This document shows positions 11,451 through 49,547 of a stretch of 64,000 nt of DNA, one piece after another. The DNA is taken from positions 2,209-66,208 of the forward strand of contig DATBKE010000116.1 in assembly GCA_036556085.1 (NCBI GenBank). Direction: 5' to 3'. The translations under genes were made by a program, and so were the position numbers. The notes beneath the pieces were generated by a model. The model searched no databases. It was not told the DNA's origin and worked only from the letters and a program-made list of their open reading frames with translations. The DNA is from Acidimicrobiia bacterium (GTDB lineage: Bacteria > Actinomycetota > Acidimicrobiia > Spongiisociales > ZC4RG35). Each line of letters opens with the position of its first letter. Positions within the stretch are counted from its first letter, which is position 1.

Positions 11451-11891
11451 TTGGTGTCACATTCAATTCAGGTCGTCTTCGCCTGCGAGGATCCGAATCG
11501 GCTCGCCGAGTTTTGGGCGGGAGCCTTGGGTTATGTCATCCAGCCGCCACCGGAAGGCTTCGCTTCCTGGGACGACTTCGCCGACTCCGTTGGCATACCC
11601 AGGGAGAAGCGCAATGACCTCTCGGCTGTGATCGACCCCGATGGCAATGGTCCCCGCTTCTTCTTCGAGCGCTATGACGGCGGTCAACCCAACCAGCGGG
11701 TGCACATCGACGTAAATTCGGTGGGAGACGGGGGCGACCTGGCCGATGACCAGCGTCGGGTCCGGCTGGCCGAGGAGCGGGAGCGACTGGAAAGGCTGGG
11801 TGCCGTTTACAAGCGAGAGGCGACAGGCCTGGCTGGCGAGATCTGGATCGAGATGTTCGATCCTGAAGGCAACTGGTTCTGCGTGCAATGA
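11451..11891 (+). CDS. VOC/glyoxalase-like domain protein
   Basis: 146 aa with IQVVFACEDPNRLAEFWAGALGY...VHIDV...DPEGNWFCVQ. AGGAGG lies just upstream; exact start (TTG 11451 or GTG 11454) is uncertain. Confidence 0.75.
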   Translation: MVSHSIQVVFACEDPNRLAEFWAGALGYVIQPPPEGFASWDDFADSVGIPREKRNDLSAVIDPDGNGPRFFFERYDGGQPNQRVHIDVNSVGDGGDLADDQRRVRLAEERERLERLGAVYKREATGLAGEIWIEMFDPEGNWFCVQ

Positions 11892-12913
11892 GCTCCGTCC
11901 TCGAACTCATCCCCCTTTCGATGCCGTGGATCGGGCTCGACCCGTTCATCTTCACCGTGCACCACGTCGATCATTACCCGGCTGGCAACCAGGCCCAGGG
12001 GCCCCAACCCGGGCTGGCGGGACGCCAAATCGGGGCCGACTTCTCGTACCGGGACGGTTGGAGCATGTACCACGGGCGTCAGGTGCCCGGTTTTCCTCAG
12101 CACCCACACCGCGGCTTTGAGACCGTCACCGTCGTTCGGCGCGGGTTCATCGATCATTCCGACTCCCTCGGTGCCACGGCCCGCTTCGGCCATGGCGACA
12201 CCCAGTGGCTGACAGCCGGTGGAGGGATCCAGCACTCAGAAATGTTCCCGCTCATCGATTCCGAGGGAGCGAATGAACTCGAGCTGTTCCAGATCTGGCT
12301 CAACCTCCCGCCGGCCCAAAAGATGGTCCCGCCCTATTTCCGTATGCTCTGGTCGGAGGAAATCCCGACGGTTGTCTCCGAAGACGGCCAGACCAGCGTC
12401 GACATCATCGCCGGCCGATTCGAGCATCACCGAGCTCCCGCTCCCCCGCCCGATTCCTGGGCGGCACGAGATTCTTCCGAACTGGCGATCTGGCTGATCC
12501 GTCTTGGCGCCGGGGCCAGGTGGGATCTCCCCGCTACCCACGCCGGGGTCAACCGCATGCTCCATTTCTTCGATGGAACCGAGGTGGCTATCGATCGGCA
12601 TCGAATCGCTCCTAATACCGGAGCGCGCCTCCGACCTGACCTGGCTACCAGTCTCACCAACCACGGCAGCCCGGCCGAGTTCCTGCTGTTGCAAGGTCAA
12701 CCCATCGGTGCCCCGGTTTTCCAGATGGGTCCATTCGTGATGAACAGTCCGGAGGAAATCTCCCAAGCCGTGCTCGACTACCGACTAACCCAGTTCGGAG
12801 GCTGGCCCTGGCCTTCCACCGAGCCGGTCCATGACCGCCGAGCAGGAAGGTTCGCGATCCACGCCGACGGTCGGCTCGAAGAGCGTGAGCGCGTGCCGCT
12901 CAAAACAGCCTAG
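11888..12913 (+). CDS. pirin family protein
   Basis: 341 aa with HPHRGFETVTVV metal-binding motif and bicupin length. ATGA overlap with the upstream gene. Confidence 0.9.
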   Translation: MSSVLELIPLSMPWIGLDPFIFTVHHVDHYPAGNQAQGPQPGLAGRQIGADFSYRDGWSMYHGRQVPGFPQHPHRGFETVTVVRRGFIDHSDSLGATARFGHGDTQWLTAGGGIQHSEMFPLIDSEGANELELFQIWLNLPPAQKMVPPYFRMLWSEEIPTVVSEDGQTSVDIIAGRFEHHRAPAPPPDSWAARDSSELAIWLIRLGAGARWDLPATHAGVNRMLHFFDGTEVAIDRHRIAPNTGARLRPDLATSLTNHGSPAEFLLLQGQPIGAPVFQMGPFVMNSPEEISQAVLDYRLTQFGGWPWPSTEPVHDRRAGRFAIHADGRLEERERVPLKTA

Positions 12914-19965: not shown

Positions 19966-20877
19966 TTATCCGCCGACCAGGGCTCTGAGGAAAAACGCAA
20001 GATTGGCGGGGCGTTCTCCAAGGCGTCGCACCAAATACGGATACCAATGCGAGCCATATGGGAGATAGATGCGAATTGGGTACCCGGCTTGGGATAGCTC
20101 CGACTGGGCCCTGGACCGAACTCCATAGAGCATCTGGAATTCGAATGGGCCGCTCCGTGTCCGCGCAAGTCGCCTGGTCAACTCGATCAACTTCGGGTCG
20201 TGCGTGGCAATGGCGGGCGTGACTCGATCGGCCGCCATCAACATCTCCAGCAGGCGAGCAAACGCGGCGTCGACGTCGTCACGATCGGTGAACGCAACAA
20301 CGCGATCTTCGACGTAGGCGCCCTTGCAAAGCCGCAGATGTCCACCGTGCATCACCAGGCTGTCGACATCGCCCGGCGTGCGATACAGGTACGCCTGCAG
20401 GGCGAGACCGAGGTTGCCACGGAGCTCTTGTGCCGAGCGGTATAGATCGACGGTGGCCCCGGTGTAGCGCGAATCCTCCATATCGATCGTGATGGTCAGC
20501 CCCAGGTCGGCCGCGGTGGCCGCCAATCGGTCCAGTGTCTTGGCGGCGAGACTCTGGTCGATGGCTAGGCCCAGCTGCGTGAGCTTGACCGAGATGTTGG
20601 CGTCGAGGCTGTTCTCGGCGATGCGCCCCAGACACTCCTCGTAGCCTTTGTAGGCCTGCTCCACCTCGGCGGGCGATGTGACCTCTTCGCCCAGCAGATC
20701 GAGGGAGACTGCCATGCCCGACTGATTGAGGCGCCGAGCAACCGCGGCCGCCTCATCAAGGGTCTCGCCGGCAACGAAGCGATGGGCTAATCGCTGTCCG
20801 GCTTTGGTACGGGTGATGAGGCGCTCGATCGGGGGTGATTCGGCTGTTCCCACCACGAGGCGGGAAAAGAGGCTCAT
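19966..20877 (-). CDS. proline dehydrogenase (monofunctional PutA-like)
   Basis: 303 aa with ...FVAGETLDEAAAVARRLNQSGMAVSLDLLGEEV..., a typical PRODH TIM barrel. ATGA overlap with the proC stop. Confidence 0.85.
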   Translation of the reverse strand: MSLFSRLVVGTAESPPIERLITRTKAGQRLAHRFVAGETLDEAAAVARRLNQSGMAVSLDLLGEEVTSPAEVEQAYKGYEECLGRIAENSLDANISVKLTQLGLAIDQSLAAKTLDRLAATAADLGLTITIDMEDSRYTGATVDLYRSAQELRGNLGLALQAYLYRTPGDVDSLVMHGGHLRLCKGAYVEDRVVAFTDRDDVDAAFARLLEMLMAADRVTPAIATHDPKLIELTRRLARTRSGPFEFQMLYGVRSRAQSELSQAGYPIRIYLPYGSHWYPYLVRRLGERPANLAFFLRALVGG

Positions 20878-21680
20878 CCCGAGCCGAGCTCCCTAGCTCT
20901 TTGGGCGGCGGCTCGCACCGCGTCCTCGACCAACGCCCGAAATCCGCGTTCCTCCAGGACGTGGACGGCGGCGGCCGTGGTTCCCCCCGGAGAAGTCACC
21001 TGCGATCGAAGCTCGAAAGGTCCTCGCTCCGTTTCGGTAAGGAGATGGCCGGCGCCCCGGATCGTCTGATTGACAAACGATTCGGCAATATCGCGGGGCA
21101 GGCCTTCGCGCACGGCCGCTTCGGTGAGAGCCTCGGCCAGAAGGAAGACGTAGGCCGGACCCGTGCCGCTGACCGCAGTGACGGCGTCGAGGAGACCCTC
21201 GTCAAGTTGCTGCACGCCCCCGACGGCCTCGAGCACCAGCCGCGCCTTCTCGAGGTCTTGTTCCCCAGCATGGCGGCCAGCCGCCATTCCGGTAACCGCT
21301 TCCTTCACCAAGGCCGGCGTGTTCGGCATTGCCCTCACCACGGCGACGTCGCCCAGAGCCGACTCGTAGATCGAGGTCGGGACCCCGGCGGCGATCGAGA
21401 GCAAGACCTGTCCAGGCCGGAGCGCTCCCTTCAGCTCCCCCAGAAGGGCCGCAACATCGCGCGGCTTCACTGAGATAACGACGACGTCGCGACCGGCAGC
21501 GCCGTGGGGTGAGAGCGCCACCTCGATCCCGGTGCGTTGCTGAAGCTGAGCCACTCTCTCCGGTCGTCTCACGACCAATGTGAGCTCTGAGGGTTCCCAC
21601 CCTGCGTTGAGCAGTCCGGCGGCGAGAGCCTCGCCCATCGCGCCGACTCCGACGACGGCGACCGTAGGGCGCGTGGTCAT
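20874..21680 (-). CDS. proC: pyrroline-5-carboxylate reductase
   Basis: 268 aa with VAVVGVGAMGEALAAGL Rossmann motif and the C-terminal SPGGTT motif. Confidence 0.9.
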   Translation of the reverse strand: MTTRPTVAVVGVGAMGEALAAGLLNAGWEPSELTLVVRRPERVAQLQQRTGIEVALSPHGAAGRDVVVISVKPRDVAALLGELKGALRPGQVLLSIAAGVPTSIYESALGDVAVVRAMPNTPALVKEAVTGMAAGRHAGEQDLEKARLVLEAVGGVQQLDEGLLDAVTAVSGTGPAYVFLLAEALTEAAVREGLPRDIAESFVNQTIRGAGHLLTETERGPFELRSQVTSPGGTTAAAVHVLEERGFRALVEDAVRAAAQRARELGSG

Positions 21681-38077: not shown

Positions 38078-38124
38078 AAATGGAGGTTAGGACGTATCGT
38101 GAGGTCGAGAAGAGGGTTCCCCAG

Positions 38125-39684
38125 ATGACCACCAAGATCACCTACGCCACCATGTCGGCCGACAACGCCGAGCTCAATCAGAGCTTCGACGAGGCGGTCG
38201 AGCGGGTCCGAGCCGGACTCGGCCAGCGACATCCGTTCGTCGTAGACGGGGAGGAGCGCTGGGGGGAGGGCTTTTACGAAGAACGCTCCCCGATCGATTC
38301 CGAAATAGTCGTCGGCAGCTTCGCCCAAGCGACCGATGCCGACGCCAACGACGCCGTCGCGGCCGCGAGGAAGTTCTTCCCCATCTGGGCCGATACACCC
38401 TGGCGGGAACGGGCGACCCTGCTGCTCAGCGCCGCCGACATCATGGAGGCCAGGCAATTCGAACTCGCTGCCTTGGTGGCGATCGAAGTCGGGAAGAATC
38501 GGCTCGAGGCCCTGGGTGATGTGGCGGAGACGGTCGAGTTCTTCCGTTACTACGTCCGGCAGATGGAGGAACACGATGGCTTCGTAACTCCGCTCTCCAA
38601 GCTATCGGCCGTCGAGGACAACCAGTCGGTCCTCCGTCCTTACGGGGTCTGGACGGTGATCTCTCCTTTCAATTTCCCGATGGCGCTGGCGGGCGGACCC
38701 TCGATCGCAGCCCTTTTGACCGGGAACACCGTCGTCCTCAAGCCCTCCAATGCCGGAGCGCTCACCGGTCTCGAGTTCGCCAAAGTGCTGGCGGCAGCGG
38801 GAGTGCCGCCGGCGGCTTTCCAGGTTGTCACCGGATCCGGCAGCAAAGTGGGGGCGACCCTGGTCAACCACCCCGACGTTGCCGGCATCACCTTTACGGG
38901 CTCCTACGACGTGGGGATGGGGATCTACAAGGGCTTCGCCAAAGATTTTCCCAAGCCGGCGGTGTGCGAGATGGGAGGGAAGAACCCCGTGATCGTCACC
39001 GCCACGGCCGACCTCGATGTGGCGGCGGAAGGTGTGACCCGGGCCGCATTCGGATTCTCGGGCCAAAAGTGCTCGGCCAACTCACGGGTCTATGTCGAGC
39101 GTCCGGTATACGACGAGTTCATCGATCGACTGGTGGAACGAACCGAATCGCTCCGGGTGGGAAACCCGCTCGAGAACGGCGTTTTCGTCGGACCAGTAAT
39201 CGACAGCCAGGCCACCAAGCGCTTCGAGGAGGCAGTGGCAGAGGTCAAGGCAAGCGGCGGAGAGGTGCTGGCGGGCGGCGAACTCGTCTCAAAGGACGGG
39301 CTCGAGCGCGGCAACTTCGTCGAGCCCACCGTGGTCACGGCACCGGAGTCCTCCTGGGTGTGGGATCGCGAGCTGTTCCTGCCCTTTGTGGCGGTGATGC
39401 CGGTCGATTCACTCGACGAGGCCCTCACCCGGGCCAACGACACCGAGTTCGGGCTCACCGCTGGTCTGTTCTCAAATGACGAGATGGAAATCGAGGAGTT
39501 CTTCGACCGCATCGAAGCGGGGGTGACCTACGTCAATCGACAGGCCGGGGCGACCACCGGCGCCTGGCCGGACATGCAGTCATTCGGCGGGTGGAAGGGC
39601 TCGGGAACCTCGGGCACGGGTGGCGGCGGTCCCTGGTACCTCCGTCAATACATGCGCGAGCAAAGCCGAACCCGGATCCGCTGA
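38125..39684 (+). CDS. aldehyde dehydrogenase, RocA/PruA-like (L-glutamate gamma-semialdehyde dehydrogenase candidate)
   Basis: ATG 38125, 519 aa. Contains CEMGGKN, FGFSGQKCSANSR and C-terminal FGGWKGSGTSGTGGGGPWYL, which resembles the Bacillus RocA tail. Confidence 0.8.
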   Translation: MTTKITYATMSADNAELNQSFDEAVERVRAGLGQRHPFVVDGEERWGEGFYEERSPIDSEIVVGSFAQATDADANDAVAAARKFFPIWADTPWRERATLLLSAADIMEARQFELAALVAIEVGKNRLEALGDVAETVEFFRYYVRQMEEHDGFVTPLSKLSAVEDNQSVLRPYGVWTVISPFNFPMALAGGPSIAALLTGNTVVLKPSNAGALTGLEFAKVLAAAGVPPAAFQVVTGSGSKVGATLVNHPDVAGITFTGSYDVGMGIYKGFAKDFPKPAVCEMGGKNPVIVTATADLDVAAEGVTRAAFGFSGQKCSANSRVYVERPVYDEFIDRLVERTESLRVGNPLENGVFVGPVIDSQATKRFEEAVAEVKASGGEVLAGGELVSKDGLERGNFVEPTVVTAPESSWVWDRELFLPFVAVMPVDSLDEALTRANDTEFGLTAGLFSNDEMEIEEFFDRIEAGVTYVNRQAGATTGAWPDMQSFGGWKGSGTSGTGGGGPWYLRQYMREQSRTRIR

Positions 39685-40379
39685 CGGCCGTCCTCGTCAC
39701 TGGCGCCTCCGGTCTCCTTGGGCGGCGCGTCGTCCAATCCCTGCAGAGTCGAGATCTCTCGGTTGCAGCCGCACCCCGCGACTTGTCTCAGGTTGACGTC
39801 TCGCCTGTCGATGCGGTGGTGATCTGTGCGACTGATTCCAGCCGGCCCTTCGAAGTCGACCTCGGTCAAATCGACTTTCTCGTCACCCACACCGAAGCTC
39901 ACCTCGTCTATCCCTCGATCGTCGGCTGTGATCTCATGCCGTGGCCGTACTATGAAGCCAAGGCCACCTGCGAGGAGAGCCTTCAGAGCCGGGCTAGTCG
40001 GTGGACGATCATCCGCGCCACCCAGTTCCATCAACTGATCTGGGGTTGGTACACCGCTCCTACCCGCTGGCCCTGGCTGGCGGTCCCCGTCGAGACGCGA
40101 TACCAGGTACTTGATCCTGTGGTTCATGCCGAGGCGCTGGCGGCGGCCGTCTCCGACCAGATGTTCGGCCGCCTCCCTGACGTCGGCGGTCCGTTCGCCT
40201 ATGAGGCGCGGGAGCTGGCCCGCTCCTGCCAGCGGGCGATCGGACGAAAGCGGCCGGTTCTGACCTACAACAAGCGAGGACTGTTCGGCGCCGCCCTTCG
40301 CGCCGGCGCCAACCTCACCCCCAATCGCGCCGGTGGCGAGACCTGGAACGAATTTATTGCCAGGCGAATGAAGCGCTAG
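39591..40379 (+). CDS. NAD(P)H-binding NmrA/SDR-like protein
   Basis: Rossmann motif VLVTGASGLLGRRV. The only canonical start, GTG 39591, overlaps the upstream gene by 94 nt. CTG 39681 overlaps its TGA (CTGA) and would give LTAVLVTGASG. Confidence 0.7.
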   Translation: MEGLGNLGHGWRRSLVPPSIHARAKPNPDPLTAVLVTGASGLLGRRVVQSLQSRDLSVAAAPRDLSQVDVSPVDAVVICATDSSRPFEVDLGQIDFLVTHTEAHLVYPSIVGCDLMPWPYYEAKATCEESLQSRASRWTIIRATQFHQLIWGWYTAPTRWPWLAVPVETRYQVLDPVVHAEALAAAVSDQMFGRLPDVGGPFAYEARELARSCQRAIGRKRPVLTYNKRGLFGAALRAGANLTPNRAGGETWNEFIARRMKR

Positions 40380-41497
40380 CGGGTCGAACCAAACCAGATC
40401 CGGACGCCGTCGGGATCATCGACTCCAAAGACCGTGTCGCCCCATGCCTCGACTTTGAGCTCTCGGGTTACCGGCACTCCCCCGGCAACGAGATGCTCGT
40501 GCCAGGCCACGACATCTTCGACAAAGAATCCCAGCTCGAGTCCGGAAGGACGAGGCCAGCTCGACCCCGGCGGGGGACCGAGCAGCTGCAGCGTCTCCCC
40601 GCCGGCAGCCTCCAACACTGCGCCGGAACCGGTCTCACGATCCCATCCGGTGAGTCGGCGGAACCCGAGGATGCGCTCGTAGAAGTCGACCGAGCGCCCA
40701 AAGTCCGAGACCCGCAGCAAAGCCCGCAGCCCTTCCACCCGACCCGGGGCACGGGTCGGCGCTTCGCCGGTGATGACCCGCCTCGCCTCGGCGATCGTGA
40801 AGCGCCCGGCAGTTACCTCACGCCCGACAATCACCCCTGCCAACCGCCGGGTGCCGACGCTCAGTCGGCGCATGGTGGCGATGTCGTTGAGATCGCGCAC
40901 CCCTCCCGACGCAATGACGGGCTCTTCCACCGCCTTCAACGCCTCGGCCAACACCGCGAACCCGGGGGCTTCGGTCAAGGCGTCGCGCTTTGCCTCCCCA
41001 ATCAGAAATGCGGCCGCTCCGGCCGAAGACATCTCAACCAGGGCCTCCTCGAGATACCGACCCGAGTGTCCTGTCCAGCCGCCGGTGACCACCTCGCCGT
41101 CCGGGAGGACATCGAGGGCGACGGCAACTTTGTCGTGGAAGTTGCGGCACGCCTCCCAGACCATGTTCTGGTTCTCGATCGCCGCCGTCCCCATCACCAC
41201 CCGCCAGGCGCCGTTGTTGATCAGGCGCTCGAGCTCGGACTCAGATCGAACTCCGCCCGCGACTTGGACCGGGATAGTGGCGGCTTTGAGGATCTCGTCG
41301 ATCAGCGGGCGATTGCGGTACTCGCGCCGAATGGCGGCGTCGAGATCGACCACATGCAGGTAGTCAACTCCAAGTCGTTCCCATGACAGGCAGCGCCCGA
41401 TGGGATCGGCGTCGAGATGAACGACCTCCCGCAGATCGCCGTGAGTCAAACGAACGGAGCGCCCGTCCAGGATGTTGACCCGGGCGTAGAGGTCCAT
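40376..41497 (-). CDS. fusion protein: HisA/HisF-family (beta/alpha)8 barrel + C-terminal VOC/glyoxalase domain
   Basis: 373 aa. Residues 1-245 show the HisA-like pattern (LHVVDLDAA, VQVAGGVRS, VALDV, ASGGVRDLNDI, GVIVGRE). Residues 255-373 are VOC-like (LRVSDFGRSVDFYERILGF...DPDGVRIWF). Confidence 0.85.
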   Translation of the reverse strand: MDLYARVNILDGRSVRLTHGDLREVVHLDADPIGRCLSWERLGVDYLHVVDLDAAIRREYRNRPLIDEILKAATIPVQVAGGVRSESELERLINNGAWRVVMGTAAIENQNMVWEACRNFHDKVAVALDVLPDGEVVTGGWTGHSGRYLEEALVEMSSAGAAAFLIGEAKRDALTEAPGFAVLAEALKAVEEPVIASGGVRDLNDIATMRRLSVGTRRLAGVIVGREVTAGRFTIAEARRVITGEAPTRAPGRVEGLRALLRVSDFGRSVDFYERILGFRRLTGWDRETGSGAVLEAAGGETLQLLGPPPGSSWPRPSGLELGFFVEDVVAWHEHLVAGGVPVTRELKVEAWGDTVFGVDDPDGVRIWFGSTR

Positions 41498-41500
41498 GCT

Positions 41501-43339
41501 TCATTCTGCCTTCTGTTTGCCCGTCTCGCCTTCGATACCGAGCGTGGTCTCGACCGCCTCGATGGTCTGCCCCCCTTTTGCCACCGGGGCAAAGAGATCT
41601 CCGAACCGGGCGAGGCGGTCCCAGAAGTTGCCGATGTTGAAATCACCGTTGCGGAGGGTGTCGACCTCTTTCCAGGTGATCGGAAAGGAGATCGGAGCTC
41701 CGGGTCGTGGGCGAACCGAGTAGACCGAGGCGATGGTCTGACCGTAGGCGTTGCGGTTGTGGTCGATGAAGACCTTGCCTTTGCGTTTGGGGATGTCCCA
41801 CTCCATGGTGAGATCAGCGGGGTTGGCAGCGACGAGGAGCTTGCCGATTGCTTCCACCAGCCGCCTTACGCGCGAGTGTCGATACTTGGCCTCGATCGGC
41901 ACGTAGACGTGAAGCCCTTTGGAACCGGAGAGCTTGGGATATCCATTCAGGCCCAGTCGGCCGAGCAGTACTTCGAGGAGCTTCGCTCCGGCCACGACCT
42001 GTTCCCACTCCGCCCCTTCGGCTGGATCGAAATCAAAGATCGCTAGATCGGGATGTTCGAGGTTCCCGGCCCGGGAGTGGAAGGGGTGGATCTCGATGCA
42101 GCCCATGTTGGCGAACCACATCAGCGACTCCCGGTTGGAGGCGAGCAGAAAGTCCTGAGCTCCCCCCGACGAGTCCGACGGCACCGCCGCCGTCTCCATC
42201 CAGGCGGGCTGATGTCCGGGTGCCCGCTTCTCGTAAAAGGTCGGACCATTGATGCCGTCCGGATATCGGGACATGGAAATGGGTCGGTCGCGCAAGTGAG
42301 GCAACAACACTGACGACACCGAGGCGTAGTACTGAATGAGATCGCCCTTGGTGAAGCCCTCGGGGAAGAAGGGCTTGTCAAGGTTCGAGAGCTTGAGCGG
42401 ACGGACTCCGGGAACGAGAAGGTTCTTACCGTCCTTCTTCCCCCTGACCTTGGCCGGGAAATCGATCCGGCCGGAGTCGATGTTTCGTCCTTCGCTCTTG
42501 CTGCTCGGTCCCTTGCTGATCGTTTCCTCGAGCTCGTTTTGGATGGCATCGTGGCTTGATTGCTCTCGCGCCTCGGAGATCACCACCATCGACAGCTCGT
42601 CGTGGAGGGCGGCCTCGATCAGCGGTCCGATCCGGAGGGTGCCTTCGCCGTAGGGGAGGTGTCTCACTTCCCCACCGGCGTTGAAGAGGTTGTCGGTGAA
42701 TTGGGTTTGCAGCGGGTCGATCATCCAGCCGGGAAAGCTCCCGCGAATGAAGCCGATAACCGATTCGAATGCTTCGACGCTGGTGAGGGCTCCGCCGGTC
42801 TGGGCGTGGACGTGAGCCCAGTCGACGATCGGCCGGATGAAGCTGAACTCGTCGGCCAGAAGGGCGATATCACCGAGGGTTCCGAAGTTCCGCTCGGCCC
42901 CGCTCGTCTCGAGCCCGAGACCGACCCCCATCTGCTCGATCTTGGGGCTGATCCTTCGCAGTCGCTCCTGGATCATTCCGGTCAACACTTCGGGGTCGCG
43001 GCCCTGGGCGGCACCGAAGTGGGCGCAGATGATGCGACTGCCGAGAGCCCGGCCCAGCTTCATCGTGTGCTCGAGGGCGGCCAGGCATTGTTTCGCCCTG
43101 TCCTCGTCTTCGACGGTGAGTACGGCGAAGTAGGGAGCGTGGACAGATACCCAGATGTCGCGCTCTCGGGCGAGATCGCCGAACCGTTGACATCGCTTCT
43201 CCTTCCAGGGGAAGGCGGTGACGAAGGCGAGCTCGAAAGCGTTGTGGCCCTTCTTGACGAGATCGTCGAGGAACGCGGCGTCGTCTTCCGGTTTGCCGCG
43301 TGGAAGGCCCGAGATCCCGAAGCGAATCTGGGCCGGCAT
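41501..43339 (-). CDS. fusion protein: endonuclease IV-like AP_endonuc_2 TIM barrel + LigD-type primase-polymerase (AEP) domain
   Basis: 612 aa. N-terminal part has SVHAPYF, ICAHFGA, GLETSG, DWAHVHAQTGG, VRHLPYGEGTL, VVISEA. C-terminal part has KLSNLDKPFFPEG, AIFDFDP, SGSKGLHVYVP, FIDHNRNAYGQT. Confidence 0.9.
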   Translation of the reverse strand: MPAQIRFGISGLPRGKPEDDAAFLDDLVKKGHNAFELAFVTAFPWKEKRCQRFGDLARERDIWVSVHAPYFAVLTVEDEDRAKQCLAALEHTMKLGRALGSRIICAHFGAAQGRDPEVLTGMIQERLRRISPKIEQMGVGLGLETSGAERNFGTLGDIALLADEFSFIRPIVDWAHVHAQTGGALTSVEAFESVIGFIRGSFPGWMIDPLQTQFTDNLFNAGGEVRHLPYGEGTLRIGPLIEAALHDELSMVVISEAREQSSHDAIQNELEETISKGPSSKSEGRNIDSGRIDFPAKVRGKKDGKNLLVPGVRPLKLSNLDKPFFPEGFTKGDLIQYYASVSSVLLPHLRDRPISMSRYPDGINGPTFYEKRAPGHQPAWMETAAVPSDSSGGAQDFLLASNRESLMWFANMGCIEIHPFHSRAGNLEHPDLAIFDFDPAEGAEWEQVVAGAKLLEVLLGRLGLNGYPKLSGSKGLHVYVPIEAKYRHSRVRRLVEAIGKLLVAANPADLTMEWDIPKRKGKVFIDHNRNAYGQTIASVYSVRPRPGAPISFPITWKEVDTLRNGDFNIGNFWDRLARFGDLFAPVAKGGQTIEAVETTLGIEGETGKQKAE

Positions 43340-43429
43340 TTCGGCGAGGATAAAGGAGGGCTGGCGGAACTAGTCAGGTTGTGTGTAATCGCGACCACCC
43401 TGACGTGTCTTGCTCGACGTGCCGAAGAG

Positions 43430-43582
43430 ATGGGGATGAGCACGACGACTCTCGCCACCAAACAGATGATTCCCCTCCTGGGGATGATGTGGCGCGGGAT
43501 GTGGGGCGCCACTGCTGCCACCGCAGCTGCTCAGGTCATCGCTGCCGACGAAGACAGCGACGACGAAGAAACCGCCGCCTGA
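43430..43582 (+). CDS. candidate small protein (50 aa), Met/Trp-rich with acidic tail
   Basis: MGMSTTTLATKQMIPLLGMMWRGMWGATAATAAAQVIAADEDSDDEETAA. High third-position GC. Sits in an otherwise empty 290-bp intergenic region. No clear SD. Confidence 0.3.
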   Translation: MGMSTTTLATKQMIPLLGMMWRGMWGATAATAAAQVIAADEDSDDEETAA

Positions 43583-43629
43583 TTCCTCGCCGTTCATCGA
43601 ACGGCCTCCCATACCTAGGGTGACCCCTG

Positions 43630-44097
43630 ATGCCCGCCGTCACCAAGAGTCCGGCGCTGCGAGCGTTTTGGCGGCTTCACCGGTTCCTGCTCCGAATCAG
43701 CAATGGCCGCTTCTTCACCCGGCTCGGGCCGGGACGCCAGTTGCTGTTGACCACCAGAGGACGTAAATCTGGCGAGCCGAGGCAAGTAGGCCTTACCTAC
43801 CTGGCCGATGGTGATTGGTGGGTAGTGATCGCCTCCAATGCCGGGGAGGACTCGAACCCGGCCTGGTGGCTGAATCTTCTCGCCGAGCCAACAGCCACGG
43901 TGACAGTCGGTGGCGAAACCATCCCGGTCACTGCTCGTGAACTGGAAGAGCCCGAGCGCTCATCGTTCCTCTCTCGCTTTGTTTCAGAGATCGACGCCAG
44001 CTACGCCGAATACCAGCGGCGAACGGCGCGCAGACTCCCTGTGATAGCGCTAGGCCGTGCGGCGGCTGCGAGTCCAGAAGGCGGTTCCCACAAGTAG
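43630..44097 (+). CDS. deazaflavin (F420H2)-dependent nitroreductase family (Ddn-like, split beta-barrel)
   Basis: 155 aa: LLLTTRGRKSGEPRQVGLTYLADGDWWVVIASNAGEDSNPAWWLNL. Confidence 0.85.
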   Translation: MPAVTKSPALRAFWRLHRFLLRISNGRFFTRLGPGRQLLLTTRGRKSGEPRQVGLTYLADGDWWVVIASNAGEDSNPAWWLNLLAEPTATVTVGGETIPVTARELEEPERSSFLSRFVSEIDASYAEYQRRTARRLPVIALGRAAAASPEGGSHK

Positions 44098-44334
44098 GAG
44101 TAGCGAAGCTGCCAACGGAATCGGCCCTGAGCCGAAAATAACCAAGACGCCGTAGAAGACGCTGAGCACCGACACCATCCACAGCGGGACAGTCGCTTCC
44201 CGAATCGCGTAGAACAGTGACAGGCCCGCAAAAGCAGCGAAGAAGAAGCCGCTGCTTTGGCCGGTCGCTATTCCGACTCCGATCAACAAGGCGGCCGGAA
44301 TCGCGATGAGCCAAAACCGGTTGTCCCAATGCAA
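44050..44334 (-). CDS. possible small 3-TM membrane protein
   Basis: The hydrophobic C-terminal 94 aa of track ORF 44050-44490 (the N-terminal part is the complement of tRNA-Lys). TTG 44334. Has a 48-nt convergent overlap with the Ddn-like gene. Confidence 0.3.
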   Translation of the reverse strand: MHWDNRFWLIAIPAALLIGVGIATGQSSGFFFAAFAGLSLFYAIREATVPLWMVSVLSVFYGVLVIFGSGPIPLAASLLLLVGTAFWTRSRRTA

Positions 44335-44857: not shown

Positions 44858-45445
44858 ATGGCCGATCCGGTGGACGACATCATCGGGGACTACCGAGGGT
44901 TCGCGGCACAGCAGCACCACCGGCTGCTCGCCCGGGGTATCGACATCCGGCCATACTCGCTCAGCCACCTGGCATACCGCGTGCCAGAGTGGGACCAGTA
45001 CATCCACCTGCGCACGCTGCTCGAACGCCACGCCAGCTCGAACGTCGAAAACGTTTGGAACGGTCGGCCGATCTCATTGATCCTTCTTGCCACCCCGCTC
45101 GAGGTCCTCGAGGGAATGAGCGTGCCGCTGATCGAACTCATCCCACCGGTCCACCAGCGCGTCTACAAGATGGGCCTCGAGCATCTCGGAGTGGTCATTG
45201 GGGAGGAGGTGGATGCCTTCTCGAGGGAGCATCGCGACGTCTTAACCGGTCAGCAGTTCCAGAACGAGCACAACGAGCCCTACTACGTCCTCTTTGAGGA
45301 CTTCACCCACGTGAAGTTCCACCGCCGTCCGCTGCACGACGTCCTCGTCCTCCAGGGAGCCACATTCGATGGAATCGTCCATGTCGATGACTGGGTCCCA
45401 CAGCGCCTCGTAACGGCTACCGGCCCACACCCTCTGCCGCGGTGA
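44858..45445 (+). CDS. YecM-like VOC-fold metal-binding protein
   Basis: 195 aa: SHLAYRVPEWDQY...NGRPISLILLATPL...LIELIPP...GLEHLGVVIG. Confidence 0.6.
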   Translation: MADPVDDIIGDYRGFAAQQHHRLLARGIDIRPYSLSHLAYRVPEWDQYIHLRTLLERHASSNVENVWNGRPISLILLATPLEVLEGMSVPLIELIPPVHQRVYKMGLEHLGVVIGEEVDAFSREHRDVLTGQQFQNEHNEPYYVLFEDFTHVKFHRRPLHDVLVLQGATFDGIVHVDDWVPQRLVTATGPHPLPR

Positions 45446-47984: not shown

Positions 47985-49547
47985 ATGACCAGCACCCCTC
48001 GCCGGCTGGCTTTGGTGATCGCCACAACCGAATACGACGACAGCCGGCTGCTCCGCTTGGGAGCGCCTTTGGCCGACGCCCTCGAATTGGCCCGGACTCT
48101 GAAGGAGCACGGTGACTTCGACGTCGAAACGCTGATCAATGCCGAGGCGCAAACGGTCCAGAGACGCATTGAGCGCTTCTGCAAAGCGGGACGGCAGAGC
48201 GCCGACACCATCCTCGTCTACTTCACCGGACACGGAGTCAAAGATGATGACGGCAACCTTTACTTTGCTCTTCGTGACACGGACCGCGACCTATTGAGGA
48301 CGACCGCTGTCTCCGCCGAATTGTTGGCGGCGGTGATGGACGAGAGCCCTGCCCGTTCCCAGCTCCTGATGCTCGACTGCTGCTACTCCGGCGCTTATGC
48401 CCGTGCGCTGCGCCCCAAAGGCGAAGAAGACGCCGGGCTCGGTGACCAGTTCGCCTCTTCCCCGGCAGCTCGGGGTCGGGTGGTGCTGGCGGCCTCGGGA
48501 GCCATCGAGCAAGCGTGGGAGGAAGACGCCGGTTCCATCTACACCCGAGCAGTGGTGGACGGGATACGGACCGGCCGCGCCGACCTCGACGGCGATGGCC
48601 GCATCACCGCCAGCGAACTCCACGCCCACGTCAGCGAGAATCTCCGAAGCGAAGGGCGGCAGACTCCGCGCAAGTTCGAATTCGACGATGCCGGGAGCCT
48701 GCTGGTCGCCCGTCGGGGTGAGGCGCCACCAATCGTTCCGAGCATGCCCGCCGCAAAGAGAGCAAAGCGACCCGCGGTCCGAGAAAGGCAGATCACTCCC
48801 TCAAATCGAAAGGCTCCGGCCTGGATCCCTGGGATGATGGCGGTGGCCCTCGCCGCGGTGCTCGGAACCCTGTGGCTGAGCGGAGGGATTGGCTTCCTTC
48901 CTTCGCCCTTGATCGAGGTCACCACCACGGCCGCCGTAGTGGTGCCACCACCTCCAACTGCCGTTGCATCGGCGACCACAGTCAGCACCGCAGTTGAGTG
49001 GCAGGTAGCGATCGACGAGCAGTTCACCGTTAACGACCGGGAATGGGCCGAGGGCGATTTCGGCGACACCTCCGCTGACTGGTTCTTCCGATTCGTCGGG
49101 GGAACGTACGAGGGGGGTTTCACCACAGGGACGTCCGATCTGACTTACTACAGCACGGTTCCGTTTACTCCCGAATCGAGGCCCTTGTACATCGAAACTG
49201 AAACCACGAGCTATTCGGCAGGCAGCCAATGCGGAATTGCGTTGCAAAACGCGGATGGATCGCTGACGGCAGTAGGAATAGGCAGTGGCGAGGTCGTCGC
49301 CCGTCATCATGTTGAGAACGAGATCGCCAATTCCGGGTCGTGGCCGGTACCTTTAGCAGGACCAACTGAGACCCAACTAGGGCTTTGGATCGACGGGTCA
49401 ATTGTCACGATCTATATCGATGACCGCGAGCTGGCGAGCTTCGATGAGCCTTCGCTCACAGACATCTCCGCGATTGGAGTCGGCCTGATCGGTGGGACCG
49501 ACGTGTATTGCGGGTTCGATTACATCGTCGCTCAAGAAGGTGACTGA
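47985..49547 (+). CDS. caspase-family (C14) peptidase with TM helix and extracytoplasmic beta-rich (ConA/LamG-like) domain
   Basis: 520 aa. RRLALVIATTEYDD, His in ILVYFTGHG, Cys in LLMLDCCYSGAYA. K/R-rich segment, then TM AWIPGMMAVALAAVLGTLWLSGGIGFL, then a C-terminal domain of about 200 aa. Confidence 0.85.
   Translation: MTSTPRRLALVIATTEYDDSRLLRLGAPLADALELARTLKEHGDFDVETLINAEAQTVQRRIERFCKAGRQSADTILVYFTGHGVKDDDGNLYFALRDTDRDLLRTTAVSAELLAAVMDESPARSQLLMLDCCYSGAYARALRPKGEEDAGLGDQFASSPAARGRVVLAASGAIEQAWEEDAGSIYTRAVVDGIRTGRADLDGDGRITASELHAHVSENLRSEGRQTPRKFEFDDAGSLLVARRGEAPPIVPSMPAAKRAKRPAVRERQITPSNRKAPAWIPGMMAVALAAVLGTLWLSGGIGFLPSPLIEVTTTAAVVVPPPPTAVASATTVSTAVEWQVAIDEQFTVNDREWAEGDFGDTSADWFFRFVGGTYEGGFTTGTSDLTYYSTVPFTPESRPLYIETETTSYSAGSQCGIALQNADGSLTAVGIGSGEVVARHHVENEIANSGSWPVPLAGPTETQLGLWIDGSIVTIYIDDRELASFDEPSLTDISAIGVGLIGGTDVYCGFDYIVAQEGD

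What the first reader, a model, noticed from the sequence alone, without database searches (positions are those of the whole stretch)
40376..41497. HisA-like barrel fused to a VOC/glyoxalase domain, 3 nt downstream of the repair fusion and outside any his operon
Seen in sequence:
- The 373-aa ORF starts 3 nt after the stop of the EndoIV-PrimPol gene on the same strand, so it is probably co-transcribed.
- Its N-terminal roughly 245 aa follow the HisA/PriA pattern (LHVVDLDAA, PVQVAGGVRS, VAVALDV, ASGGVRDLNDI, GVIVGRE).
- The first strand reads ARVNILDG. HisA/PriA enzymes, as I recall them (IPAxDLxxG), carry the catalytic Asp at that position, so here the Asp appears replaced by Asn.
- The phosphate-binding segment (IGEAKRDALTE) is divergent.
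- The C-terminal roughly 120 aa form a VOC fold (LRVSDFGRSVDFYERILGF...FVEDVVAWHEHL...DPDGVRIWF).

Inference: this is a neofunctionalised HisA paralogue, possibly acting on a ribosyl, ribulosyl or phospho-sugar compound, joined to a metal-dependent VOC domain. The operon link to a DNA-end or AP-site processing enzyme raises the possibility that it handles sugar-phosphate or damaged-nucleotide products. That last idea is speculative.
Basis: partly seen in the sequence, partly recalled or inferred. Interest (0 to 1): 0.65.

Follow-up and report, generated by a model that had tools for sequence, protein, structure and literature searches.

The report
HisA-like barrel with Asn replacing catalytic Asp
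This soil-actinobacterial gene belongs to an undescribed offshoot of the histidine-pathway enzyme HisA: it keeps the substrate-gripping residues, has permanently swapped one catalytic aspartate for asparagine, often carries a metal-less glyoxalase-type domain, and usually sits just after a DNA-repair fusion gene, so it probably does something other than make histidine.

Summary

- **Domains:** residues 1-245 form a HisA/PriA-type (βα)8 barrel and residues 258-373 a VOC domain.
- **Catalytic site:** the β1 catalytic Asp is Asn8. This Asn is fixed in every relative examined, while Asp129, Asp172, the phosphate "gripper" residues Arg84/Thr104 and the stacking Trp141 are kept. About 40 further positions are fixed to residues that differ from canonical Acidimicrobiia HisA.
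- **Family:** a tight clade (at least 50% identity inside, at most about 45% to any canonical HisA), apparently confined to Acidimicrobiia. It is never next to his genes.
- **VOC domain:** it lacks the glyoxalase-I metal ligands (His→Arg258, Glu→Gln304, His→Gly/Leu, Glu→Trp). Some family members have no VOC domain at all. "Metal-dependent" is therefore not supported.
- **Neighbour:** the EndoIV-like–PrimPol gene lies directly upstream on the same strand in 65 of 68 informative metagenome loci. It is missing in several deeper branches, and the whole block is syntenic.

Best reading: a neofunctionalised HisA paralogue that binds a ProFAR-like phosphoribosyl ligand. Its function is unknown and a repair role is speculative. 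I could not show that it coexists with a canonical hisA in one genome.

The parts
40376..41497 (-). Whole gene: 373-aa HisA-like barrel plus VOC domain (stop TAG at 40376..40378)
   Evidence: ORF list; Pfam His_biosynth plus Glyoxalase; AlphaFold2 model with mean pLDDT 91.2; metatranscriptome contigs at 99% identity or more cover 40557..41471
40763..41497 (-). HisA/PriA-type (βα)8 barrel, residues 1-245
   Evidence: Pfam 7-230, E=1.2e-48; TIGR00007 173.8 bits against a cutoff of 228.95; Foldseek top hits are MtPriA 3zs4/2y88 with TM (target) 0.91 and rmsd 1.9 Å
41474..41476 (-). Asn8 codon (AAC) at the position of the β1 catalytic Asp (Asp11 in PriA, Asp7 in Salmonella HisA)
   Evidence: PDB alignments; Asn in 115 of 116 family members, the other being a gap; Asn in all 21 family versus Asp in all 25 canonical sequences; codon checked
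41480..41482 (-). Arg6, a family-specific invariant Arg two residues before Asn8 on β1 (canonical: Ala)
   Evidence: family Arg in 21 of 21, canonical Ala in 24 of 25
41111..41113 (-). Asp129, retained (= PriA Asp130)
   Evidence: Invariant in the family and in canonical HisA
40979..40984 (-). Asp172-Ala173: the loop-6 catalytic Asp is retained (= Asp171 Sc / Asp175 Mt / Asp176 Se), followed by Ala in place of the canonical Gly
   Evidence: Residue count on the 1vzw alignment; Asp172 invariant
41186..41248 (-). Loops 3 and 4 with Arg84 and Thr104 (= Arg85/Thr105 of MtPriA, the grippers of the distal phosphate of ProFAR); Ala80 replaces the canonical Gly (Ser81 in PriA)
   Evidence: Arg84 and Thr104 invariant; their role taken from PMC9088769; Ala80 against Gly in 25 of 25 canonical sequences
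41075..41077 (-). Trp141 (= Trp145 of HisA/PriA, which stacks on ProFAR)
   Evidence: Invariant in both groups; role from PMC9088769
40727..40768 (-). Conserved Gly/Pro-rich linker, residues 244-257 (G-x-x-P-x-R-A-P-G)
   Evidence: Column conservation; the stand-alone homologues end just after Gly244
40379..40726 (-). VOC domain, residues 258-373 (two βαβββ modules), without the canonical metal ligands: Arg258 (40724..40726), Gln304 (40586..40588), Gly323, Trp368
   Evidence: Pfam Glyoxalase; DSSP of the model; profile alignment to glyoxalase I 6bnz/6bnn/5d7z; codons
41498..41500 (-). 3-nt spacer between the upstream stop (TGA, 41501..41503) and the ATG
   Evidence: no promoter-like site in 39400..44200 and no terminator-like site at the junction
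41501..43339 (-). Upstream gene: AP_endonuc_2 (EndoIV-like TIM barrel, residues 25-267) fused to a LigD primase-polymerase domain (residues 330-583)
   Evidence: Pfam; NCBIfam ligD_pol 240.5 bits, above its cutoff; orthologue directly upstream on the same strand in 65 of 68 informative metagenome loci and in L002, L003, L005, L006, L008, L009, L010 and L012
39591..40379 (+). Convergent 262-aa NAD(P)-binding-like gene whose stop overlaps the stop of the target gene (shared CTAG)
   Evidence: orthologue in the same position in L002/L003, L009 and L012
38080..39684 (+). Convergent 534-aa aldehyde dehydrogenase, part of the conserved syntenic block
   Evidence: Pfam Aldedh; below all NCBIfam equivalog cutoffs; an Aldedh lies within 1.5 kb downstream on the opposite strand in 47 of 52 informative loci

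Best explanation
The gene encodes a member of a previously uncharacterised, Acidimicrobiia-restricted offshoot of the HisA/PriA phosphoribosyl-isomerase family that has taken on a new function outside histidine biosynthesis.

Shown:
- The barrel is structurally a PriA/HisA.
- It keeps both phosphate-binding ends, the distal-phosphate grippers (Arg84, Thr104), the stacking Trp141, Asp129 and the loop-6 acid Asp172.
- The β1 catalytic Asp is fixed as Asn8, with a new invariant Arg6 beneath it.
- About 40 further positions are fixed to residues different from canonical Acidimicrobiia HisA. About ten of these lie on catalytic-face loops (Gly80→Ala, Glu142→Thr, Gln168→Glu, Ile169→Ala, Gly201→Arg, Lys226→Arg, Ala227→Glu, His229→Thr).

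Inferred:
- It still binds a bis-phosphorylated, ProFAR-like N-ribosyl (phospho-sugar) ligand.
- It cannot run the normal Asp-driven Amadori step efficiently. It therefore either catalyses a different acid-assisted step through Asp172/Asp129 on a more anionic ligand, or holds such a ligand.
- The C-terminal VOC domain is a metal-free accessory module, of the kind seen in bleomycin-resistance and uncharacterised VOC proteins. It probably serves for dimerisation or small-molecule binding, and it is dispensable for the core function because some family members lack it.
- In the window the gene is most likely co-transcribed, and possibly translationally coupled, with the EndoIV-like–PrimPol gene.
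For: - Fold and family.
- Asn8 invariant: 115 of 116 aligned members (the exception is a gap), all 14 genome/ENA loci read and all 79 readable metagenome loci. Asp in all 25 canonical Acidimicrobiia HisA.
- D7N and D11N are the substitutions crystallographers used to obtain ligand complexes of HisA/PriA (PDB titles). Asp11/Asp175 are named as the catalytic residues in PMC13055916 and PMC5404923.
- Retained binding residues, with roles from PMC9088769.
- Discrete clade: only about 5 full-length 50%-identity clusters at 277-319 bits, then a gap to full-length canonical HisA at 185 bits or less (only fragments of family members fall between). The family is monophyletic on a long stem.
- 39 positions are fixed differently from canonical HisA. 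That argues for a new constraint rather than decay.
- Never in a his context in 15 genome/ENA loci. A canonical Asp-bearing hisA sits in a hisC..hisH-hisA-hisF cluster in an Acidimicrobiaceae MAG.
- VOC metal ligands are missing. The VOC domain is absent or replaced in L012-L015.
- The gene appears expressed in soil metatranscriptomes.
- 3-nt spacer with no predicted promoter or terminator at the junction.
Against: - No biochemical data exist.
- Asp→Asn variants of PriA can retain some turnover. 2Y88 is the D11N variant with the product PRFAR bound, so slow ProFAR isomerisation is not excluded.
- I could not show that any genome carrying this gene also carries a canonical hisA/priA.
- The canonical Acidimicrobiaceae HisA also scores just under the TIGR00007 cutoff (224.9 against 228.95). 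Failing that cutoff is therefore weak evidence on its own.
Confidence: 0.6

Rival explanations
1. DNA-repair accessory: the barrel works with the EndoIV-like–PrimPol protein on a sugar-phosphate moiety at DNA lesions. Candidates are a ring-opened abasic site, a 5'-deoxyribose-phosphate end, or the ribonucleotide patch laid down by a Prim-Pol.
For: - Same-strand adjacency with the EndoIV-like–PrimPol gene in 65 of 68 informative metagenome loci, median spacer 66 nt, 3 nt in the window.
- The adjacency spans three sub-clades down to about 50% identity, including L012, which lacks the VOC domain.
- In mycobacteria EndoIV, Prim-PolC and LigC act together in base excision repair, and the gap is filled with ribonucleotides (PMC5663958).
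- HisA chemistry starts with acid-catalysed opening of a ribose-5-phosphate ring, and Asp172 is kept.
- The family has gained several invariant Arg residues (Arg6, Arg35, Arg91, Arg118, Arg201, Arg232).
Against: - The adjacency is absent in L004, L007, L013, L014 and L015, and two genes intervene in L001.
- The downstream aldehyde dehydrogenase and further housekeeping genes (PlsY, LPG synthase) are conserved to a similar degree. Inherited synteny is therefore enough to explain the link.
- The retained pocket (two phosphate sites about one ProFAR length apart, stacking Trp) looks like a small-molecule site.
- No nucleic-acid-binding domain was found.
- No RNA contig spans the gene junction.
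Confidence: 0.15
2. Pseudoenzyme: a catalytically dead HisA that only binds ProFAR/PRFAR or a related nucleotide, acting as a sensor, buffer or scaffold. The VOC domain would add a second binding or dimerisation surface.
For: - Asn8 is the substitution used to trap ligands in HisA/PriA crystals.
- The ligand-binding residues are kept.
- An invariant outer helix α5 (R-[YF]-L-E-E-V-L-x-E-M-S-S-A-G) suggests a protein-protein surface.
- The VOC domain is also without catalytic metal ligands.
Against: - Asp129 and Asp172 remain invariant.
- About ten catalytic-face positions are newly fixed. That is more typical of a re-tooled active site than of a dead one.
- No DNA-binding or signalling output domain is attached.
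Confidence: 0.17
3. It is simply the organism's histidine (and perhaps tryptophan) pathway isomerase, a HisA/PriA with an unusual Asn that has moved out of the his operon.
For: - Best family hits are HisA/PriA.
- JGI annotates relatives as ProFAR isomerase.
- The ProFAR-binding residues are retained.
- Coexistence with a canonical hisA in one genome was not demonstrated.
Against: - The β1 Asp that the literature names as catalytic is replaced in every member.
- Ser81, required for PRA isomerisation, is Ala.
- Canonical Asp-bearing hisA genes in his operons exist in the same class and family-level taxa.
- The clade lies on a long branch apart from them.
- It never lies next to his genes.
Confidence: 0.06

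Closest known systems
HisA / PriA (ProFAR isomerase, EC 5.3.1.16; e.g. M. tuberculosis PriA 2Y88/3ZS4, S. coelicolor PriA 1VZW, Salmonella HisA 5A5W)
   Same: - Same (βα)8 fold: TM 0.91, rmsd 1.9 Å, 31-34% identity.
- Same loop lengths.
- Retained Asp129, Asp172, Arg84/Thr104 grippers, Trp141, Arg16, His48 and the SGG and G-x phosphate loops.
   Different: - β1 catalytic Asp→Asn, with an Arg two residues upstream.
- GGG→AGG, DG→DA, K-A→R-E and 39 fixed differences in all.
- Not in a his operon.
- Extra VOC domain.
- Scores 51 bits lower on TIGR00007 than a canonical Acidimicrobiaceae HisA.
Described PriA/HisA sub-families and recruited paralogues (subHisA, subTrpF/subTrpF2, PriB, AdeK of the adechlorin cluster)
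   Same: These are offshoots of the same enzyme in Actinomycetota that changed specificity after gene loss or duplication (PMC5404923, PMC13055916).
   Different: - According to those papers, all of them keep the two catalytic Asp residues and change substrate-binding residues only. This clade changes a catalytic residue.
- This clade is fused to VOC.
- It lies in Acidimicrobiia MAGs, which the 1,284-genome survey did not report.
HisF-like paralogues recruited outside histidine synthesis (WbuZ, AglZ/HisF2)
   Same: A precedent for His_biosynth-family barrels working in non-histidine pathways. They gave weak hits here (67 and 66 bits).
   Different: Those derive from HisF and act with a HisH-like amidotransferase in glycan amidation. 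This protein is clearly HisA-derived (174 against 51 bits for HisF), and no amidotransferase gene was seen beside it in the annotated loci.
VOC superfamily: glyoxalase I (6BNZ, 1F9Z) and metal-free or uncharacterised members (3VCX, 4HC5; bleomycin- and mitomycin-binding proteins 1XRK, 1KLL)
   Same: Paired βαβββ modules, the FY..LGF motif after β1 and the DPDG motif before the last strand.
   Different: The four glyoxalase-I metal ligands are Arg258, Gln/Glu304, Gly/Leu323 and Trp368 here. The domain is fused to a TIM barrel. Its ligand is unknown.
Mycobacterial LigC / Prim-PolC / EndoIV excision-repair module (PMC5663958)
   Same: The neighbouring gene joins an EndoIV-like barrel and a LigD-type Prim-Pol in one chain. 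Those are two activities that cooperate in that pathway.
   Different: No HisA-like or VOC component is described for that module. No ligase or Ku domain turned up among the genes annotated within about 10 kb of the window gene or in the annotated relatives' loci.

Membership tests
HisA/PriA ProFAR isomerase | (βα)8 His_biosynth fold | tested here: met
   Pfam E=1.2e-48; Foldseek TM 0.91 to 3zs4/2y88
HisA/PriA ProFAR isomerase | Catalytic Asp at the end of β1 (Asp7 Se / Asp11 Mt, Sc) | tested here: not met
   Asn8 in the window and in all family members with a residue at that column
HisA/PriA ProFAR isomerase | Catalytic Asp on loop 6 (Asp176 Se / Asp175 Mt) and Asp130 | tested here: met
   Asp172 and Asp129 are invariant
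HisA/PriA ProFAR isomerase | ProFAR-binding residues: distal-phosphate grippers Arg83/Ser103 (Arg85/Thr105) and stacking Trp145 | tested here: met
   Arg84, Thr104 and Trp141 are invariant; roles from PMC9088769
HisA/PriA ProFAR isomerase | Score above the curated equivalog cutoff (TIGR00007, 228.95 bits) | tested here: not met
   173.8 bits. This is a weak criterion: a canonical operonic Acidimicrobiaceae HisA scores 224.9
HisA/PriA ProFAR isomerase | Location among his genes (hisH-hisA-hisF) | tested here: not met
   No his genes in the window or in the annotated relatives' loci; none of the 15 genome/ENA loci shares a his-type neighbour. Canonical arrangement seen in L033
HisA/PriA ProFAR isomerase | ProFAR (or PRA) isomerase activity; complementation of hisA/trpF mutants | not testable with these tools
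   Needs an enzyme assay or genetics
PriA (bifunctional HisA/TrpF) | Ser81, Arg143 and His50, needed for PRA isomerisation (PMC13055916) | tested here: not met
   Ala80 is at the Ser81 position (family Ala in 19 of 21). The Arg143 equivalent is Gly in the window (Arg in 62 of 116). His48 is kept
VOC metalloenzyme (glyoxalase I type) | Paired βαβββ modules | tested here: met
   Pfam Glyoxalase E=1.3e-16; DSSP shows two βαβββ units at 258-306 and 321-371
VOC metalloenzyme (glyoxalase I type) | Four metal ligands (His/Glu/His/Glu or equivalent) | tested here: not met
   Profile alignment to 6bnz/6bnn/5d7z: His→Arg258 (invariant in the 17-sequence VOC alignment; Arg in 99 of 116 overall), Glu→Glu304 in most relatives but Gln in the window, His→Leu/Gly, Glu→Trp/Phe
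Metal-free ligand-binding VOC (bleomycin/mitomycin-binding type) | VOC fold without metal ligands that binds a small molecule in the inter-module cleft, usually as a dimer | tested here: inconclusive
   Fold and lack of ligands fit. Sequence matches to 1xrk/1kll are weak (E about 1e-5). Binding and oligomeric state were not testable
Operon partner of EndoIV-like–PrimPol (no named family) | Conserved same-strand adjacency across lineages | tested here: met
   65 of 68 informative metagenome loci and 8 of the 14 distinct genome/ENA loci. It is not universal and cannot be told apart from block synteny
Anti-phage defence systems (PADLOC) | Match to any defence-protein model | tested here: not met
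   No hit for the target or its three neighbours

The most novel reading that the evidence does not exclude
A HisA-fold barrel has been recruited into a nucleic-acid repair module. Together with the EndoIV-like–PrimPol fusion it would recognise or process a ring-opening sugar-phosphate at a DNA lesion (abasic site, 5'-dRP end or embedded ribonucleotide). That would make it the first His_biosynth-family protein acting on DNA.
Probability: 0.12. Interest if true: 0.85.

Novelty: new variant of a known kind. Interest (0 to 1): 0.5.

Why it matters
HisA/PriA is a textbook system for how enzymes change function. Every described offshoot keeps both catalytic aspartates and alters only binding residues.

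This clade is widespread and appears expressed in soil Acidimicrobiia. It has fixed the very substitution that structural biologists use to obtain ligand-bound HisA/PriA crystals. At the same time it has re-tooled and frozen the rest of the catalytic face and added a metal-less VOC domain.

Working out its ligand would show either a new reaction on the HisA scaffold or a natural enzyme-to-binder transition. If the operon link is functional, it would connect phosphoribosyl chemistry to Prim-Pol-based excision repair.

On the practical side, public annotations that call these proteins ProFAR isomerase are probably wrong. They could mislead metabolic reconstructions of Acidimicrobiia MAGs.

Tried and rejected
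1. **Same-genome test for a canonical hisA.**
   - I searched canonical Acidimicrobiia HisA twice and compared 'longest contig' lengths with those of contigs carrying the Asn8 gene (2,316,925; 632,438; 608,319; 568,427 bp and others). There was no match.
   - NCBI accession neighbourhoods did not coincide (MGH8929008 against MGH9132178).
2. **Co-transcription.** Metatranscriptome contigs cover the gene, but none crosses the 41497/41501 junction.
3. **A second, independent link to AP endonucleases.** The Exo_endo_phos protein two genes downstream in L007 sits after the lipoprotein LppM and carries its nuclease-like domain only at the C-terminus of a 643-aa protein. Its L004 counterpart has no such Pfam hit. 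I rejected it as a repair link.
4. **A metabolic theme through the aldehyde dehydrogenases.** The neighbours are heterogeneous: true PruA in L005 and L012, succinate-semialdehyde dehydrogenase in L001, and an unassigned type in the window. Rejected.
5. **Neighbours of the stand-alone forms (L013-L015).** They have nothing in common.
6. **Defence-system models.** No hits.
7. **PDB sequence search with the EndoIV-like domain.** No hit at E≤0.01, so the 'EndoIV' label rests on Pfam and on motifs read by eye.
8. **Literature.** No paper on a HisA–VOC fusion or an Asn-type HisA clade turned up in the searchable library.
Full report
**1. What is in the sequence**

The ORF lies on the minus strand at 40376..41497 and encodes 373 aa. 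The upstream 612-aa gene (41501..43339, minus strand) ends in TGA at 41503..41501. Three bases (AGC) separate that stop from the ATG. Downstream, a convergent 262-aa NAD(P)-binding-like gene ends inside a shared CTAG, so the two stop codons overlap. No promoter-like site was found anywhere in 39400..44200, and none of the terminator-like sites lies at the gene junction.

Pfam places His_biosynth on residues 7-230 (E=1.2e-48) and Glyoxalase on residues 259-369 (E=1.3e-16). The best NCBIfam model is HisA TIGR00007 at 173.8 bits, below its 228.95 cutoff. An AlphaFold2 model built on 52 relatives is confident (mean pLDDT 91.2). It shows an eight-stranded βα barrel followed by two βαβββ modules. 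Foldseek puts M. tuberculosis PriA (3zs4, 2y88) and Salmonella HisA (5a5w) on top, with target TM about 0.9 and rmsd about 1.9 Å.

**2. The Asp-to-Asn change is real and fixed**

In HMMER alignments to solved PriA structures, 'LYARVNILDG' aligns with 'LLPAVDVRDG'. Asn8 (codon AAC, 41474..41476) therefore occupies the position of catalytic Asp11. Counting along the 1vzw alignment shows two further correspondences:
- Asp129 equals PriA Asp130.
- Asp172 equals the loop-6 catalytic Asp (Asp171 in S. coelicolor, Asp175 in M. tuberculosis, Asp176 in Salmonella).

The literature names Asp11 and Asp175 as the catalytic pair (PMC13055916; PMC5404923). D7N and D11N are the variants crystallised with ProFAR or PRFAR bound (PDB titles).

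Asn8 is present in 115 of 116 aligned relatives, the exception being a gap. It is also present in all 14 genome/ENA loci read and in all 79 readable metagenome loci. All 25 canonical Acidimicrobiia HisA sequences have Asp.

**3. What is kept and what is changed**

Kept and invariant:
- Arg84 and Thr104, equal to Arg85/Thr105 of MtPriA, which grip the distal phosphate of ProFAR.
- Trp141, equal to Trp145, which stacks on the substrate.
- Arg16, His48 and the SGG and G-x phosphate loops.

The roles of these residues come from PMC9088769.

Thirty-nine positions are at least 90% conserved in the family as a residue that is rare or absent in canonical Acidimicrobiia HisA. On the catalytic face these are:
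- Pro5→Ala, Ala6→Arg, Asp8→Asn, Arg10→Leu
- Gly80→Ala (the Ser81 position that PriA needs for PRA isomerisation)
- Glu142→Thr, Gln168→Glu, Ile169→Ala, Gly201→Arg
- Lys226→Arg, Ala227→Glu, His229→Thr

An outer helix (residues 147-160, R-[YF]-L-E-E-V-L-x-E-M-S-S-A-G) is also almost invariant. This pattern indicates a re-tooled, constrained site rather than decay. The active-site charge moves toward positive (loss of Asp, gain of Arg6 and Arg201). From that I infer a more anionic ligand moiety.

**4. The family**

An exhaustive search of 1.84 billion cluster representatives with the barrel alone found only about five full-length 50%-identity clusters of this type (277-319 bits, all starting M-[DE]-[LI]-Y-[AG]-R-[VI]-N-I-L). 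Only fragments of family members score between them and the full-length canonical HisA proteins, which reach 185 bits or less and 27-41% identity. In the GTDB scan the highest identity to any canonical HisA was 45%.

Named members are all Acidimicrobiia or Acidimicrobiaceae MAGs. One is labelled Acidobacteria (L014), possibly a binning error. NCBI calls them 'HisA/HisF-related TIM barrel protein'. JGI calls them ProFAR isomerase.

A neighbour-joining tree puts the family on a long stem away from canonical Acidimicrobiia HisA.

Near-identical DNA occurs in many soil and rhizosphere metagenomes. Soil metatranscriptome contigs cover 40557..41471 at 99% identity or more, so the gene appears to be expressed, with the caveat that RNA libraries can contain DNA.

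**5. The VOC domain**

A profile of 17 family VOC domains finds uncharacterised VOC proteins (3vcx, 4hc5) and glyoxalase I (6bnz, 1f9z) at E about 1e-10 to 1e-12. Bleomycin- and mitomycin-binding proteins match weakly.

Aligned to maize glyoxalase I, the four metal ligands correspond as follows:
- The first His corresponds to Arg258, invariant in the 17-sequence VOC alignment and Arg in 99 of 116 family members overall.
- The first Glu corresponds to Glu304 in most relatives but Gln in the window.
- The second His corresponds to Leu or Gly.
- The second Glu corresponds to Trp or Phe.

A canonical metal site is therefore absent, most clearly in the window protein.

The VOC domain is also facultative:
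- L013 (249 aa) and L014 (247 aa) stop right after the barrel.
- L015 (289 aa) and L012 (338 aa) carry unrelated tails.

The tree suggests that VOC was gained after the earliest split and lost or replaced at least once.

**6. Gene neighbourhood**

The window holds no other HisA/HisF-like ORF and no his or trp gene.

Among 15 loci from ENA, JGI and GTDB (14 distinct, because L002 and L003 carry the same arrangement):
- The EndoIV-like–PrimPol gene is directly upstream on the same strand in eight distinct loci (L002/L003, L005, L006, L008, L009, L010, L012).
- It is two genes away in L001.
- It cannot be judged in L011, where the contig is too short.
- It is absent within 10 kb in L004, L007, L013, L014 and L015.

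In 80 JGI metagenome loci, 65 of the 68 with at least 400 nt upstream have the PrimPol gene upstream on the same strand. This sample is biased toward VOC-bearing relatives of the window protein. The median spacer is 66 nt.

An aldehyde dehydrogenase lies within 1.5 kb downstream on the opposite strand in 47 of 52 loci, and PlsY and LPG-synthase genes follow in many. The whole block is therefore syntenic. The PrimPol adjacency fits an operon, but it does not go beyond what inherited gene order would give. The aldehyde dehydrogenases are of different kinds, and the neighbours of the unlinked members have nothing in common.

A canonical hisC..hisH-hisA(Asp)-hisF cluster exists in an Acidimicrobiaceae MAG (L033), and Asp-type HisA is common in the class. 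I could not place a canonical hisA and an Asn8 gene in one genome. Contig-length matching, accession proximity and the genome scan all failed.

**7. Interpretation**

Most likely (about 0.6) this is a neofunctionalised HisA/PriA-derived barrel. It would still bind a ProFAR-like, bis-phosphorylated N-ribosyl ligand but no longer perform the standard Asp-driven Amadori rearrangement. It would act through Asp172/Asp129 on a different substrate or step. A metal-free VOC module would serve as an accessory binding or dimerisation domain.

Rival readings:
- A ligand-holding pseudoenzyme (about 0.17).
- A repair accessory of the EndoIV-like–PrimPol protein (about 0.15). It is attractive because EndoIV, Prim-PolC and LigC cooperate in mycobacterial excision repair (PMC5663958), but it rests on synteny alone.
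- A true but odd HisA (about 0.06). It is not excluded, because D11N PriA was crystallised with the product bound.

**8. Novelty**

The 2026 survey of PriA expansions across 1,284 Actinomycetota genomes reports only the Ornithinimicrobiaceae subTrpF2 and AdeK cases, both keeping Asp11 and Asp175. No paper on a HisA–VOC fusion or an Asn-type clade turned up.

I class it as a new variant of a known kind: a HisA-superfamily member with a changed catalytic residue, a new domain partner and an unknown function.

Noticed in passing
window 41501..43339 (-): The upstream gene fuses an AP_endonuc_2 (EndoIV-like) barrel to a LigD-type primase-polymerase. Orthologues at 57-94% identity recur across Acidimicrobiia loci. 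By eye the EndoIV metal-ligand motifs (SVHAPYF, AHxG, GLGLET, VDWAHVHA, RHxPYGEG, ISEA) are conserved. The domain has no PDB sequence hit at E≤0.01 and only a weak nfo hit (1.7e-4). The fusion joins two activities that cooperate in mycobacterial LigC/Prim-PolC excision repair.
   Followed up: partly
L012:10001-11017, L013:10001-10750, L014:3930-4673, L015:10001-10870: Members of the same Asn8 family without a VOC domain: two stand-alone barrels (247 and 249 aa) and two with unrelated C-terminal tails (289 and 338 aa). L012 still sits 9 nt after an EndoIV-like–PrimPol gene.
   Followed up: partly
window 40376..40379: The target gene and the convergent NAD(P)-binding-like gene (39591..40379) end in a shared palindromic CTAG, so their TAG stop codons overlap. 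The convergent protein matches Rossmann-type Pfam models only over its first 45 or so matched residues (34-82).
   Followed up: no
L009, L092, L093 (87% relatives): In the closest clade but one, the spacer between the PrimPol fusion and the HisA-like gene is about 440 nt instead of 3-40 nt. Tight coupling is therefore not conserved even among near relatives.
   Followed up: no
window 38080..39684 (+): The 534-aa aldehyde dehydrogenase resembles L-glutamate-γ-semialdehyde dehydrogenase (432-436 bits) but falls well below every equivalog cutoff. Separate proline dehydrogenase and P5C reductase genes lie at 19966..21680.
   Followed up: partly
window 47985..49547 (+): A 520-aa protein with an N-terminal caspase-type (Peptidase_C14) domain and a long uncharacterised C-terminal part.
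   Followed up: no
window 11451..11891 (+), 11888..12913 (+) and 44858..45445 (+): Two more VOC-type genes occur in the window: a Glyoxalase_6 protein whose end overlaps the start of a pirin gene, and a YecM-family protein about 1.5 kb beyond the start of the PrimPol fusion gene, on the opposite strand.
   Followed up: no
L033:10001-10741: A canonical, operonic Acidimicrobiaceae HisA (hisH-hisA-hisF) scores 224.9 bits on TIGR00007, just under the 228.95 cutoff. This explains why NCBI also labels some true HisA proteins of this class 'HisA/HisF-related TIM barrel protein'.
   Followed up: yes
L004:11230-15478 and L007:11245-15522: In the VOC-bearing members not linked to PrimPol, the gene is followed by an LppM lipoprotein, a protein of about 600 aa (Exo_endo_phos domain in L007 only) and IMP dehydrogenase. 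This is a second, smaller conserved arrangement.
   Followed up: partly
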